The position numbers and the translations under genes are program-made. Shown one piece after another: positions 20,007 to 52,701 of a stretch of DNA of 64,000 nucleotides (its first letter is position 1; every line of letters begins with the position of its first letter). Below the pieces are notes generated by a model, which was not told the DNA's origin, did no database searches, and was given only the letters and a program-made list of their open reading frames with translations. Location of the stretch: NCBI RefSeq assembly GCF_988242995.1, contig NZ_OZ547043.1. One strand, written 5' to 3'.

Positions 20007-20369
20007 GGGGCTGATTCTGGATTCGACGGGATTTGCGAAACCCAAGGTGCATGCCGAGGGGCGGTTGGCCTCGTAAAAAGCCGCAAAAAATAGTCGCAAA
20101 CGACGAAAACTACGCTTTAGCAGCTTAATAACCTGCTTAGAGCCCTCTCTCCCTAGCCTCCGCTCTTAGGACGGGGATCAAGAGAGGTCAAACCCAAAAG
20201 AGATCGCGTGGAAGCCCTGCCTGGGGTTGAAGCGTTAAAACTTAATCAGGCTAGTTTGTTAGTGGCGTGTCCGTCCGCAGCTGGCAAGCGAATGTAAAGA
20301 CTGACTAAGCATGTAGTACCGAGGATGTAGGAATTTCGGACGCGGGTTCAACTCCCGCCAGCTCCACCA
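20007..20369 (+). ncRNA. ssrA: tmRNA (transfer-messenger RNA)
   Basis: Begins ggggctgattctggattcgacggg, contains tag-peptide reading frame (…gcaaacgacgaaaactacgctttagcagcttaa), ends …gggttcaactcccgccagctccacca. Confidence 0.97.
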
Positions 20370-27488: not shown

Positions 27489-27886
27489 TGATGCCCGCTC
27501 TGCAAAAAGTCCCTTTTTCTGGCTTGCCTTTTTCCGGCATTTGCGGATATAGTTTTTCCGCTGCCGCAAAATCGGCAGCCGGGCGTGGAAACCCGAGTAT
27601 GTTATCGGCGACATATGACGCGCCATGCGTCTTTTTTTGTGTCGCAATCAACGCCACAGAGCGCCAGATTATGGTGTGGTGTGTGGTCAGTCGAGCAAAT
27701 GGCACTCCGTGCATTCTGCCCGCGTCCGCTCATTATACCGCAGAGTCAATGGTAGCTCAGGCGGGGCAGCCTCCGCGCTGGCCGGTTTCCGATAACGCCG
27801 GTATTTCCACCCCCGTCTGGGCTATCGCCATCGAGCGTGGAAACTCCGGCGATAGCGTCATTTACGCTGTTATCGGAGGTTGCCTT

Positions 27887-46914: not shown

Positions 46915-48195
46915 ATGAGCAGCAATAAAGAGTTAATGCAGCGCCGCAGTCAGGCAGTTCCTCGTGGCGTTGGGCAAATTCACCCCATTTTCGCTGATCG
47001 CGCGGAAAACTGCCGGGTGTGGGACGTTGAAGGCCGTGAGTATCTTGATTTCGCGGGCGGGATTGCGGTGCTCAATACCGGGCACCTGCATCCGAAGGTG
47101 GTTGCGGCGGTGGAAGCGCAGTTGAAAAAGCTGTCGCACACCTGCTTCCAGGTGCTGGCCTACGAGCCGTATCTGGAGCTGTGCGAAATAATGAATCAGA
47201 AGGTGCCGGGCGATTTCGCCAAAAAAACGCTGCTGGTGACGACTGGTTCCGAAGCGGTGGAAAACGCGGTGAAAATCGCCCGCGCCGCCACCAAACGTAG
47301 CGGTACTATCGCCTTTAGCGGCGCGTATCACGGGCGTACGCACTACACGCTGGCGCTGACCGGCAAGGTAAATCCGTACTCTGCGGGTATGGGGCTGATG
47401 CCAGGCCATGTTTATCGCGCGCTTTATCCTTGCCCGCTGCACGGCATAAGCGAGGATGACGCTATCGCCAGCATCCACCGGATCTTTAAAAATGACGCTG
47501 CGCCGGAAGATATCGCCGCCATCGTGATTGAGCCGGTTCAGGGCGAAGGCGGTTTCTACGCCGCGACGCCAGCCTTTATGCAGCGTTTACGCGCGTTGTG
47601 TGACGAGCACGGGATCATGCTGATTGCCGATGAAGTGCAGAGCGGCGCGGGGCGTACCGGCACGCTGTTTGCGATGGAGCAGATGGGCGTTGCGCCGGAT
47701 CTTACCACCTTTGCGAAATCGATCGCAGGCGGCTTCCCGCTGGCGGGCGTCACCGGGCGCGCGGAAGTGATGGATGCCGTCGCTCCAGGCGGTCTGGGCG
47801 GCACCTATGCGGGTAACCCGATTGCCTGCGTGGCTGCGCTGGAAGTGTTGAAGGTGTTTGAGCAGGAAAATCTGCTGCAAAAAGCCAACGATCTGGGGCA
47901 GAAACTGAAAGACGGATTGCTGGCGATAGCCGAAAAACATACTGAGATCGGCGACGTACGCGGGCTGGGAGCGATGATTGCCATCGAGCTGTTTGAAGAT
48001 GGCGATCACAGCAAACCAGACGCAAAACTCACCGCCGAGATCGTGGCGCGTGCCCGCGATAAAGGCCTGATTCTTCTCTCCTGCGGCCCGTATTACAACG
48101 TGCTGCGCATCCTTGTACCGCTCACCATTGAAGACGCTCAGATCCGTCAGGGTCTGGAGATCATCAGCCAGTGTTTTGCAGAGGCGAAGCAGTAG
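46915..48195 (+). CDS. gabT: 4-aminobutyrate aminotransferase
   Basis: 426 aa class-III aminotransferase ORF. Confidence 0.95.
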   Translation: MSSNKELMQRRSQAVPRGVGQIHPIFADRAENCRVWDVEGREYLDFAGGIAVLNTGHLHPKVVAAVEAQLKKLSHTCFQVLAYEPYLELCEIMNQKVPGDFAKKTLLVTTGSEAVENAVKIARAATKRSGTIAFSGAYHGRTHYTLALTGKVNPYSAGMGLMPGHVYRALYPCPLHGISEDDAIASIHRIFKNDAAPEDIAAIVIEPVQGEGGFYAATPAFMQRLRALCDEHGIMLIADEVQSGAGRTGTLFAMEQMGVAPDLTTFAKSIAGGFPLAGVTGRAEVMDAVAPGGLGGTYAGNPIACVAALEVLKVFEQENLLQKANDLGQKLKDGLLAIAEKHTEIGDVRGLGAMIAIELFEDGDHSKPDAKLTAEIVARARDKGLILLSCGPYYNVLRILVPLTIEDAQIRQGLEIISQCFAEAKQ

Positions 48196-48202
48196 ATCCG
48201 TA

Positions 48203-48368
48203 CCCATGCCGGAGGCGACGCTGCGCGTCTTGTCCGGCCCACGAAAATGTAGGTCGGATAAGGCGTTTACGCCGCATCCGACATTCGGCGCACCATGCCG
48301 GAGGTGACGCTTTGCGTCTTGTCCGGCCTACGAGAATCCAGGTCGGGTAAGGCGGAGCCGCTCTCCGG
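48203..48368. repeat. REP/BIME-type palindromic repeats between gabT and gabP
   Basis: Two near-identical units gccggaggcgacgctgcgcgtcttgtccggcc…aggtcggataaggcg / gccggaggtgacgctttgcgtcttgtccggcc…aggtcgggtaaggcg. Confidence 0.8.
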
Positions 48369-48458
48369 CAAAAAGAATCAATAACAATTACACGCGTGAC
48401 CCGACGCGGGAAATGTCGGGGCGCTCTCCCAAGTGACACACTTTCGAGAGGATTCAGG

Positions 48459-51725: not shown

Positions 51726-52250
51726 ATGGCTTTGACAACCATTTCGCCGCATGATGCACAAGAATTAATCGCACGCGGCGCAAAGTTAATCGATATTCGT
51801 GACGCTGATGAATATCTTCGTGAACATATTCCTGAAGCAGATCTGGCTCCATTATCCGTGCTGGAACAGTCAGGTCTTCCGGCTAAATTACGTCGCGAGC
51901 AAATTATATTCCACTGCCAGGCAGGTAAACGCACCAGTAATAACGCCGATAAATTAGCAGCGATTGCCGCCCCCGCAGAAATCTTTTTACTCGAAGATGG
52001 GATTGATGGCTGGAAAAAAGCAGGATTACCAGTAGCGGTAAATAAATCTCAACCCTTGCCGTTAATGCGCCAGGTGCAGATCGCTGCGGGTGGTTTAATA
52101 TTAATCGGCGTTATACTGGGCTATACCGTAAATAGCGGTTTCTTCTTATTAAGCGGCTTTGTTGGTGCCGGGTTACTGTTTGCAGGAATTAGCGGTTTTT
52201 GTGGGATGGCAAGGTTGTTAGATAAGATGCCGTGGAACCAACGAGCTTGA
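51726..52250 (+). CDS. ygaP: Membrane-anchored rhodanese-domain sulfurtransferase
   Basis: 174 aa; active-site CQAGKR; C-terminal TM helices. Confidence 0.9.
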
Positions 52251-52292
52251 GAAGCGACGCCGGACGCGCCATAGCGGCGGCATCCGGCCTCA
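52251..52292. repeat. REP element between ygaP and stpA
   Basis: gaagcgacgccggacgcgcc…gcggcggcatccggcctca palindromic unit. Confidence 0.7.
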
Positions 52293-52296
52293 GTAA

Positions 52297-52701
52297 TTAG
52301 ATCAGGAAATCGTCGAGAGATTTACCTTCTGCCAGCGCCTGAGCGATTGGCTTCGGTGTACGGCCCTGACCGGTCCAGGTTTTAGTTTCACCGTTAACAT
52401 CAGTGAATTTATATTTTGCCGGACGCGGCTGGCGTTTTTTACCAGCGCGTGGTGCAGCAGCAGAGCTATTACCCAATAACTCTTCCGGGTTAATTCCGTC
52501 AGCTTTCATCAGCTCCAGCCAGGTACTAATTTTTTCCTGGCGCTCTGCCAGTTCACGCTGCTGCTGTTCTTCTTCTTCACGTCTTTCTTTAGTGACAACC
52601 CTGAATTTTTCGAGCATTTCTTCAAGAACGTCAATGGAGAATTCGCGAGCCATCGCACGGAGAGTGCGAATGTTATTTAAACTTTGTAACATTACGGACA
52701 T
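52297..52701 (-). CDS. stpA: H-NS paralogue / RNA chaperone StpA
   Basis: 134 aa [36 protein letters not shown]…. Confidence 0.95.

What the first reader, a model, noticed from the sequence alone, without database searches (positions are those of the whole stretch)
48203..48368. REP/BIME repeats between gabT and gabP, and a single REP after ygaP
Two near-identical GC-rich palindromic units lie in the gabT-gabP spacer and one at 52251-52292. These are ordinary E. coli extragenic palindromes that may act as transcript stabilisers.
Basis: partly seen in the sequence, partly recalled or inferred. Interest (0 to 1): 0.15.

Follow-up and report, generated by a model that had tools for sequence, protein, structure and literature searches.

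The report
Ordinary REP/BIME repeats between gabT and gabP
The gabT-gabP spacer holds an ordinary E. coli cluster of four palindromic REP repeats (a BIME), in a rare copy-number variant, while the palindrome after ygaP only resembles a REP and is single-copy.

Summary
Window 48208-48370 is a BIME made of four REP hairpin units in alternating orientation (Z, Y, Z, degenerate Y), not two. A 62-nt direct repeat (87% identical, period 89 nt) reflects the duplicated Z-Y pair. The Y-Z pair at 48252-48328 exceeds Rfam's gathering score for naRNA4, the family built on the REP325 pair. A 46-nt probe from one unit hits at least 40 places in every E. coli genome.

The BIME lies inside the csiD-lhgO-gabDTP operon, 12 nt after the gabT stop codon. 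No promoter or intrinsic terminator consensus is present. The locus is highly polymorphic:
- K-12 has 3 units.
- Other strains have 5 or 7 units.
- About 20-25% of genomes carry a different dispersed repeat instead.
- The window's junction occurs in only 41 of 5,426 genomes.

The most likely function, inferred rather than shown, is that of a 3'-UTR-like mRNA stabiliser and read-through attenuator that favours gabT over gabP.

The palindrome after ygaP (52259-52289) has the REP-type foot. It is single-copy in every genome and lacks the GTAG/CTAC signature, so REP membership is only borderline.

Next to the BIME, a conserved two-hairpin gabP leader that pairs with the Shine-Dalgarno sequence has no Rfam match.

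The parts
48193..48195 (+). gabT stop codon (TAG), 12 nt upstream of the first REP stem
   Evidence: ORF 46915-48195. Annotated as gabT in matching E. coli records. Sequence read.
48208..48242 (+). REP unit U1, Z-type: GCCGGAGGCGACGCTGCGCGTCTTGTCCGGCCCAC. The tail is CCAC instead of CTAC.
   Evidence: Score 24 against the Z2 half of the Rfam naRNA4 consensus and 20 against the published Y consensus. Matches the foot pattern. Located.
48249..48283 (-). REP unit U2, Y-type. GTAG reads on the + strand; the published consensus orientation reads on the - strand. GGTCGG/CCGACA replaces the consensus GGCCGG/CCGGCA, which is a compensatory change.
   Evidence: Score 28, with 30 of 32 aligned positions matching the published consensus. 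Inverted repeat I1. A 46-nt probe gives at least 40 places per genome.
48297..48331 (+). REP unit U3, Z-type, with an intact CTAC tail. Near-identical to U1 (31 of 35).
48341..48370 (-). REP unit U4, a degenerate Y-type: GGTCGGGTAAGGCGGAGCCGCTCTCCGGCA. CCA replaces GTA. An intact counterpart sits at the same position in Citrobacter, and a diverged one in Salmonella.
   Evidence: Score 14 against the consensus. Orthologous GTAGGCCGGATAAGGCGGAGCCGCCATCCGGCA lies upstream of gabP in Citrobacter; the Salmonella diarizonae counterpart is the more diverged GTAGGCCGAATAAGCGAGGCGCCATCCGGTA. Located.
48204..48354 (+). Span of the 62-nt direct repeat (48204-48265 and 48293-48354; period 89 nt), which is the duplicated Z-Y period
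48252..48328 (+). Y-Z pair matching Rfam RF02564 (naRNA4, the REP325-type pair)
   Evidence: 68.8 bits against a gathering score of 59.5; E 4.5e-10 for the whole window
48371..48458 (+). gabP leader, adjacent to the BIME and not itself a REP. It has a CA-rich stretch CAATAACAAT and two conserved hairpins; the second hairpin pairs with the Shine-Dalgarno sequence GAGAGG.
52259..52289 (.). Solitary REP-like palindrome between the convergent genes ygaP (stop 52248-52250) and stpA (stop 52297-52299): GCCGGACGCGCCATAGCGGCGGCATCCGGCC
   Evidence: Foot pattern. Fold. One place per genome. Conserved at this position in Escherichia species but not in Citrobacter or Salmonella.

Best explanation
**What it is**
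- Window 48208-48370 is a bacterial interspersed mosaic element (BIME).
- It has four repetitive extragenic palindromic (REP) units in alternating orientation: Z-type, Y-type, Z-type, then a decayed Y-type. Short linkers separate them.
- It lies within the csiD-lhgO-gabDTP operon, between gabT and gabP.

**How it arose (DNA level)**
- It belongs to the non-autonomous REP/REPIN repeat family.
- It changes copy number by recombination between its own units.
- The window's allele looks like a 5-unit allele, as in E. albertii, in which the second Y unit recombined with the last unit. That event would have deleted about 65 nt, including a 34-nt non-REP linker.

**How it most likely works (RNA level; inferred, not shown)**
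- It is transcribed as part of the polycistronic mRNA and folds into very stable hairpins.
- The hairpins block 3'-to-5' exonucleases and partly stop read-through.
- The upstream gabT part of the message would then be more abundant than the gabP part.
- The first hairpin starts 12 nt after the gabT stop codon, so it may also slow terminating ribosomes.

**The palindrome at 52259-52289**
- It is a solitary, fixed, REP-like hairpin, possibly a decayed REP.
- It most likely marks and protects the 3' ends of both convergent transcripts, ygaP and stpA.
For: **Identity as a BIME (shown)**
- Direct repeat.
- Alignment to REP consensus sequences.
- Rfam naRNA4 match above the gathering score.
- At least 40 copies per genome for a 46-nt probe.
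- Alternating orientation with short linkers.

**Transcribed context**
- Same-strand genes 263 nt apart.
- No sigma-70 promoter-like site and no intrinsic terminator on the + strand within the spacer.

**Stable RNA structure**
- The halves fold at -43.5 and -43.2 kcal/mol, z -3.6 and -3.0.
- The whole spacer folds at -121 kcal/mol, z -4.4.

**Function by analogy**
- REP325 acts as an mRNA stabiliser and a partly Rho-dependent terminator. REP-containing tandem gene pairs show upstream-biased expression (bioRxiv 10.64898/2026.03.23.713779).
- The same preprint's K-12 RNA-seq table gives baseMean values of 794.7 for gabT and 89.6 for gabP.
- REPs within 15 nt of a stop codon reduce translation (Liang et al. 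2015, as cited in PMC12306157). Here the gap is 12 nt.

**Copy-number dynamics**
- Alleles exist with 3, 4, 5 and 7 units.

**ygaP-stpA hairpin**
-.
Against: - No expression, 3'-end or half-life data exist for this strain or this allele.
- The K-12 counts come from a 3-unit allele. Causes other than the BIME could also explain them.
- The preprint reports wide scatter and no general effect of REPs on mRNA half-life.
- About 20-25% of E. coli genomes have no REP at this site and carry another repeat instead. No particular BIME architecture is therefore required.
- For the ygaP-stpA hairpin, the two E. coli allele differences in the inner stem are not compensatory. The common K-12 allele has the weaker stem.
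Confidence: 0.8

Rival explanations
1. The repeats are selfish or neutral passengers (REPIN-type non-autonomous elements) with no locus-specific function. They sit here only because this intra-operon spacer tolerates insertions.
For: - The locus is extremely polymorphic, with 3, 4, 5 or 7 units, or complete replacement by another dispersed repeat with a median of 16 places per genome.
- The window's junction is present in only 41 of 5,426 genomes.
- Two of the four units have lost the GTAG/CTAC signature.
Against: - A REP counterpart of U4 sits at the same position upstream of gabP in Escherichia, several Citrobacter species and Salmonella diarizonae. This suggests long retention.
- Published data show measurable local effects of REPs on neighbouring genes.
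Confidence: 0.3
2. The Y-Z pair is processed into an naRNA4-like nucleoid-associated RNA that works with HU to condense the chromosome.
For: Rfam RF02564 match above the gathering score at 48252-48328.
Against: - The family model is simply a Y+Z2 REP pair, so the match shows sequence and structure class, not function.
- The 2026 preprint reports that REP325/naRNA4 does not measurably compact the nucleoid and that REP-REP contacts are absent.
Confidence: 0.05
3. The BIME acts mainly on DNA, as a strong DNA gyrase site and a substrate for the REP-associated transposase TnpA-REP, and not on the mRNA. This is not exclusive of the best explanation.
For: - Gyrase cleavage sites are over-represented in BIME-2 elements, and gyrase prefers Y-type units (PMC6379681).
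- TnpA-REP binds REPs that have a GTAG and a stem mismatch, and it cleaves and recombines BIMEs in vitro (PMC3333891).
- U2 and U3 keep GTAG/CTAC.
Against: - No gyrase or TnpA-REP data exist for this locus.
- Only a subset of BIME-2 elements bind gyrase.
- The Z units here have a GCCGGA foot instead of the Z2 GCCTGA foot.
Confidence: 0.2
4. The palindrome after ygaP is a true, diverged member of the REP family.
For: - It has an exact REP-type foot, GCCGGA...TCCGGCC, with REP-like length. There are 3 matches in the window against 0.01 expected, and the other two are bona fide REPs.
- In other Escherichia species the head reads GCCGGATGCGCC, closer to the consensus GCCGGATGCGGCG.
- It is extragenic, lies between convergent genes, and is 7-8 nt from both stop codons.
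Against: - It has one place per genome at blastn word 11 and E<=10, against at least 40 for a same-length REP probe.
- Its consensus score of 13 is matched by five other loci in the window.
- It has no GTAG/CTAC, and the tail varies (CTCAG, GCCAG, AGCAG, TCCAG, TCAAG) across Escherichia.
Confidence: 0.45

Closest known systems
E. coli BIME-2 / atypical BIME (for example REP325 between yjdM and yjdN; Rfam RF02564 naRNA4)
   Same: - Alternating Y- and Z-type REP hairpins in tandem periods of about 90-100 nt.
- A short head-to-head linker of 12-13 nt and a short tail-to-tail linker.
- Located between tandem genes of one operon.
- Strain-to-strain copy-number variation.
- Full-length match to the family model above the gathering score.
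   Different: - The Z units have the foot GCCGGAGG...TTGTCCGGCC instead of the Z2 consensus GCCTGATG...TTATCAGGCC.
- The Y units carry a compensatory GGTCGG/CCGACA variant.
- There are only two periods, and the last unit is decayed.
- U1 and U4 lack GTAG/CTAC.
malE-malF type intra-operon REPs, the classical mRNA stabiliser (recalled from the literature: Newbury et al. 1987; Stern et al. 1988)
   Same: REP hairpins sit between two co-transcribed genes, and the upstream gene is expressed more strongly than the downstream one.
   Different: No experiment exists for gabT-gabP. The comparison rests on position, on predicted structure and on K-12 read counts from a preprint supplement.
REPs between convergent genes acting as bidirectional terminators or decay blocks (bioRxiv 10.64898/2026.03.23.713779)
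   Same: The ygaP-stpA palindrome is a GC-rich hairpin without a U-tract. It fills a 46-nt gap between convergent genes and has a REP-type foot.
   Different: It is single-copy, lacks the GTAG/CTAC signature, and has an interior unlike the Y and Z consensus sequences.

Membership tests
REP (E. coli Y/Z repetitive extragenic palindromes) | 30-40 nt imperfect palindrome with a mismatch in the stem | tested here: met
   U1-U3 are 35 nt with internal mismatches. U4 is 30 nt and degenerate. The ygaP-stpA unit is 31 nt with a bulged stem.
REP (E. coli Y/Z repetitive extragenic palindromes) | Similarity to the published consensus | tested here: met
   - U1-U3 score 22-28, against a background 99.9th percentile of 13.
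- U4 scores 14 and the ygaP-stpA unit 13. Both lie within the range of chance loci, so the feature is met for U1-U3 only.
REP (E. coli Y/Z repetitive extragenic palindromes) | Conserved GTAG (CTAC) tetranucleotide at the foot | tested here: inconclusive
   - Present in U2 (GTAG, 48249-48252) and U3 (CTAC, 48328-48331).
- Changed in U1 (CCAC) and U4 (CCAG).
- Absent in the ygaP-stpA unit (CTCAG).
REP (E. coli Y/Z repetitive extragenic palindromes) | High copy number, dispersed in the genome | tested here: met
- The same test on the ygaP-stpA 46-mer gives exactly 1 place per genome, so the feature is NOT met for that unit.
REP (E. coli Y/Z repetitive extragenic palindromes) | Extragenic, at the 3' ends of genes | tested here: met
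   Both sites lie between annotated genes, in tandem (gabT-gabP) and convergent (ygaP-stpA) arrangements.
BIME (bacterial interspersed mosaic element) | Two or more REPs in alternating orientation separated by short linkers | tested here: met
   Orientation is + - + -, with linkers of 6, 13 and 9 nt.
BIME-2 | Y plus Z2 units in tandem copies with a short S linker | tested here: inconclusive
   - Full-length naRNA4 (Y+Z2) match at 68.8 bits, with an S-like 13-nt linker.
- The Z units carry GCCGGA, not the GCCTGA of Z2.
- The y/z1/z2 consensus figure of PMC3333891 is not available as text. The element is therefore best called atypical or BIME-2-like.
BIME-1 | Single Y-Z1 pair with a long L linker carrying an IHF site | tested here: not met
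   There is no WATCAANNNNTTR match in the spacer, and the element is a tandem duplication.
Rfam RF02564 naRNA4 | Score at or above the curated gathering threshold | tested here: met
   68.8 against 59.5 bits. This shows membership of the sequence and structure class only, not the proposed HU-related function.
Intrinsic (Rho-independent) terminator | GC-rich hairpin followed by a U-tract | tested here: not met
   No terminator-like site was found on the + strand within the gabT-gabP spacer. None was found at the ygaP-stpA hairpin on either strand.

The most novel reading that the evidence does not exclude
The gabT-gabP spacer may be a modular, evolvable control region for the permease gene. It would have three parts:
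- An ancient REP (U4), retained at the same site from Salmonella and Citrobacter to Escherichia.
- Lineage-specific expansion, contraction or replacement of repeat units, which tunes the gabT:gabP ratio between strains.
- An unannotated, conserved two-hairpin gabP leader RNA (48392-48451). Its second hairpin sequesters the Shine-Dalgarno sequence, so it could be a new cis-regulatory element that senses a metabolite, a protein or an sRNA.
Probability: 0.2. Interest if true: 0.45.

Novelty: already known. Interest (0 to 1): 0.12.

Why it matters
As filed, it matters little. REPs and BIMEs are the most abundant and longest-known intergenic repeats of E. coli, and this is one more locus.

The modest added value has two parts:
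- **A natural allelic series.** At one intra-operon site, genomes carry 3, 4, 5 or 7 REP units, or a different repeat. Such a series could test directly whether REP copy number sets the upstream:downstream expression ratio. The literature still treats that question as context-dependent.
- **The neighbouring gabP leader.** It is conserved, pairs with the ribosome-binding site, and has no Rfam family.

Tried and rejected
1. **K-12 RefSeq annotation.** The copy of NC_000913.3 lists no repeat features at gabT-gabP or ygaP-stpA. It also lists none at REP325, so the absence says nothing.
2. **Supplements and papers.**
   - Supplements of PMC3333891, PMC4550694, PMC6061677 and PMC12306157 were searched for locus-level REP or 3'-end tables. 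None is held as text, or none had a hit.
   - Liang et al. 2015 is not held, so its 15-nt rule is cited second-hand from PMC12306157.
   - A literature search for gabT, gabP, REP and extragenic together found nothing.
3. **Consensus alignment for the ygaP-stpA unit.** It is ambiguous: the score of 13 is the same as chance loci. I therefore used copy number with a matched control and the foot pattern. These two tests point in opposite directions, so the call stays borderline.
4. **Compensatory changes in the ygaP-stpA hairpin among E. coli alleles.** None was found. The two differences weaken the stem in the common allele.
5. **Separate gabP promoter or gabT terminator.** No consensus match.
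6. **IHF site (BIME-1).** None.
7. **GcvB targeting of the CA-rich CAATAACAAT stretch.** In a search for gabP, GcvB and sRNA, none of the 12 papers listed mentions gabP. The idea was dropped.
8. **gabP leader model in about 60 Pseudomonas gabP loci.** No hits.
9. **Coding extension of gabP from GTG 48396.** The extension is in frame, but I rejected it. Relatives have a 1-nt deletion and a 13-nt insertion in this stretch.

Full report
**Setting**

The window is E. coli chromosome. Rfam finds the pheA leader, tmRNA, and the prophage RNAs isrK and C4. BLAST of 48100-48560 hits gabT and gabP in 5,425 of 5,426 complete E. coli genomes. gabT ends with TAG at 48193-48195. gabP starts at ATG 48459, which leaves a 263-nt spacer. 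Further on, ygaP (stop at 52248-52250) and stpA (minus strand, stop at 52297-52299) converge on a 46-nt gap.

**Checking the observation**

- The repeat finder reports a 62-nt direct repeat, 48204-48265 and 48293-48354, 87% identical with 89-nt spacing. It also reports a hairpin at 48253-48282.
- Scanning both strands shows four units, not two:

| Unit | Coordinates | Type | Foot signature |
|---|---|---|---|
| U1 | 48208-48242 | Z-type, + strand | tail CCAC |
| U2 | 48249-48283 | Y-type | GTAG on the + strand |
| U3 | 48297-48331 | Z-type, + strand | tail CTAC |
| U4 | 48341-48370 | decayed Y-type | CCA in place of GTA |

- The foot pattern GCCGGA-N16-28-TCCGGCC occurs three times in 64 kb against 0.01 expected. 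The matches are U1, U3 and the palindrome at 52259-52289.

**Are they REPs?**

- Against the published consensus GCCGGATGCGGCGTGAACGCCTTATCCGGCCTACGA (quoted in PMC12306157) and the Z2 half of the Rfam naRNA4 consensus, U1-U3 score 22-28. The 99.9th percentile of window positions is 13.
- No other locus in the window reaches 16.
- The U2-U3 pair matches Rfam RF02564 over its full length at 68.8 bits, above the gathering score of 59.5. RF02564 (naRNA4) is the Y+Z2 pair of REP325.
- The arrangement fits the definition of a BIME in PMC3333891: alternating orientation with linkers of 6, 13 and 9 nt.
- It is BIME-2-like, with tandem periods and a short head-to-head linker. The Z units carry GCCGGA/TCCGGC where Z2 has GCCTGA/TCAGGC, and the Y units carry a compensatory GGTCGG/CCGACA variant. 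There is no IHF core site, which BIME-1 would have. 'Atypical BIME' is the safest label.

**Polymorphism at the locus**

| Allele | Spacer | Unit order |
|---|---|---|
| K-12, THO-015, E. whittamii | 236-237 nt | Z-Y-linker-U4, with a 34-nt non-REP linker |
| E. albertii | 328 nt | Z-Y-Z-Y-linker-U4 |
| Strain 32F4, Escherichia sp. E1V33 | 415-416 nt | Z-Y-Z-Y-Z-Y-linker-U4 |
| Window, strains C4 and 042 | 263 nt | Z-Y-Z-U4 |
| BL21-derived C41(DE3) and about 20-25% of genomes | 310 nt in C41 | no REP; another repeat |

- The window allele is what a recombination between the left arm of the second Y unit and the left arm of U4 would leave. Such an event would delete about 65 nt. This origin is inferred.
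- The window's diagnostic U3-U4 junction is found in 41 of 5,426 genomes.
- The repeat in the BL21-type allele is itself dispersed, with a median of 16 places per genome.
- A REP counterpart of U4 sits at the same position upstream of gabP. It is intact in several Citrobacter species (GTAGGCCGGATAAGGCGGAGCCGCCATCCGGCA) and more diverged in Salmonella enterica subsp. diarizonae. One unit is therefore old, and the Z-Y periods are an Escherichia addition.

**How it most likely works**

*Shown:*
- The element lies between same-strand genes of one operon.
- The + strand of the spacer has no sigma-70 promoter-like site and no intrinsic terminator.
- The RNA is predicted to fold very stably. The two halves fold at -43.5 and -43.2 kcal/mol (z -3.6 and -3.0). 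The whole spacer folds at -121 kcal/mol (z -4.4).

*Inferred from the family:*
- REP325 stabilises the upstream yjdM message and acts as a partly Rho-dependent attenuator of yjdN. Genome-wide, tandem gene pairs separated by REPs show upstream-biased expression (bioRxiv 10.64898/2026.03.23.713779).
- That preprint's K-12 RNA-seq table gives gabT 794.7 and gabP 89.6. This is consistent with the model but is not a test of it.
- U1 starts 12 nt after the gabT stop codon. That is within the 15-nt range in which REPs were reported to lower translation of the upstream gene (Liang et al. 2015, cited in PMC12306157).
- DNA-level roles remain possible but are untested here. They are gyrase binding at BIME-2 Y units (PMC6379681) and serving as a TnpA-REP substrate (PMC3333891).
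- The nucleoid-RNA role that gave the Rfam family its name is disputed by the 2026 preprint.

**The palindrome after ygaP**

- GCCGGACGCGCCATAGCGGCGGCATCCGGCC (52259-52289) folds at -23 kcal/mol on the + strand and -28.2 kcal/mol on the - strand.
- It lacks a U-tract on either strand.
- It lies 8 nt from the ygaP stop and 7 nt from the stpA stop.

*For REP membership:*
- It has the exact REP foot on both arms.
- It has REP-like length and position.
- Other Escherichia species have a head closer to the consensus, GCCGGATGCGCC.

*Against REP membership:*
- It has exactly one place per genome in 5,417 genomes, under the same search that gives at least 40 for U2.
- Its consensus score of 13 is equalled by five other loci in the window.
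- It has no GTAG/CTAC, and its tail differs in every Escherichia species examined.
- The differences between E. coli alleles are not compensatory.

In C. amalonaticus, C. werkmanii, C. youngae and Citrobacter sp. Cu233 a different hairpin, GCGGTGAGG...CCTCACCGC, follows stpA. In C. werkmanii, C. youngae, Cu233 and Salmonella diarizonae a small extra gene also lies between ygaP and stpA. I read the element as a fixed, solitary, REP-like hairpin, possibly a decayed REP, that serves both convergent transcripts as a 3'-end structure. REP membership is about even odds.

**Noticed next to the BIME: the gabP leader**

- The 88 nt between U4 and the gabP start are conserved upstream of gabP in Escherichia, Citrobacter, Pseudocitrobacter, Pluralibacter, Shimwellia and Hafnia. 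This holds even where the REPs are replaced.
- RNAalifold predicts two hairpins.
  - The first hairpin has three pairs with changes on both sides. Zero of 500 shuffles reach the observed value, and the slid controls fall to 30-58% paired against 98.9% observed.
  - The second hairpin is nearly invariant. It tolerates G-U pairs and a 13-nt loop insertion in Shimwellia, and its 3' arm is the Shine-Dalgarno sequence GAGAGG.
- Indels that are not multiples of three rule out a coding extension.
- No Rfam family matches.
- A covariance model built from the alignment finds the motif only at enterobacterial gabP loci and not at about 60 Pseudomonas gabP loci.
- The motif is missing in C. amalonaticus and Salmonella diarizonae.
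- The evidence is thin: 15 distinct, closely related sequences. It is a candidate cis-regulatory leader and lies outside the finding as filed.

**Verdict**

The finding is correct and ordinary. It is a known kind of element at a locus that carries it in most E. coli, here as a rare copy-number variant. Interest is low.

Noticed in passing
window 48371-48458: Conserved gabP leader with two hairpins. The first hairpin shows covariation. The second pairs with the Shine-Dalgarno sequence GAGAGG. It is preceded by a conserved CA-rich CAATAACAAT. It has no Rfam match, is found upstream of gabP in six enterobacterial genera, and is absent from Pseudomonas gabP loci.
   Followed up: partly
L004 397-706 (C41/BL21) and L015 5692-6000 (Pseudocitrobacter faecalis): In about 20-25% of E. 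coli genomes the REPs of the gabT-gabP spacer are replaced by a different dispersed repeat that contains CCCTCTGGGGAGAGGGTTAGGGTGAGGGG. That repeat has a median of 16 places per genome. From memory it resembles the 'Box C' family; this was not verified.
   Followed up: partly
L014, L015 (Pseudocitrobacter): The Pseudocitrobacter faecalis gabP is 99% identical to E. coli at the protein level. Its gabT-gabP spacer is almost the same as the BL21-type allele. This suggests recent horizontal transfer of the gab region or a shared mobile segment.
   Followed up: no
L020, L021, L023, L024 between ygaP and stpA: Citrobacter species and Salmonella diarizonae carry an extra small ORF between ygaP and stpA, beginning MFKPGDLVQPRMGGPKLKVVEV. 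Escherichia lacks it. In the three Citrobacter loci, stpA is followed by a different hairpin, GCGGTGAGG...CCTCACCGC.
   Followed up: no
window 20007-20369 and 27547-27832: A tmRNA gene is followed a few kb later by isrK, C4 antisense RNA and c4-a1b1 matches. This looks like a prophage or island integrated next to ssrA.
   Followed up: no
L011 (E. coli P276M): In this strain the sequence upstream of the ygaP-stpA palindrome is rearranged: only the 3' half of the hairpin remains. The stpA homologue is annotated as frameshifted.
   Followed up: no
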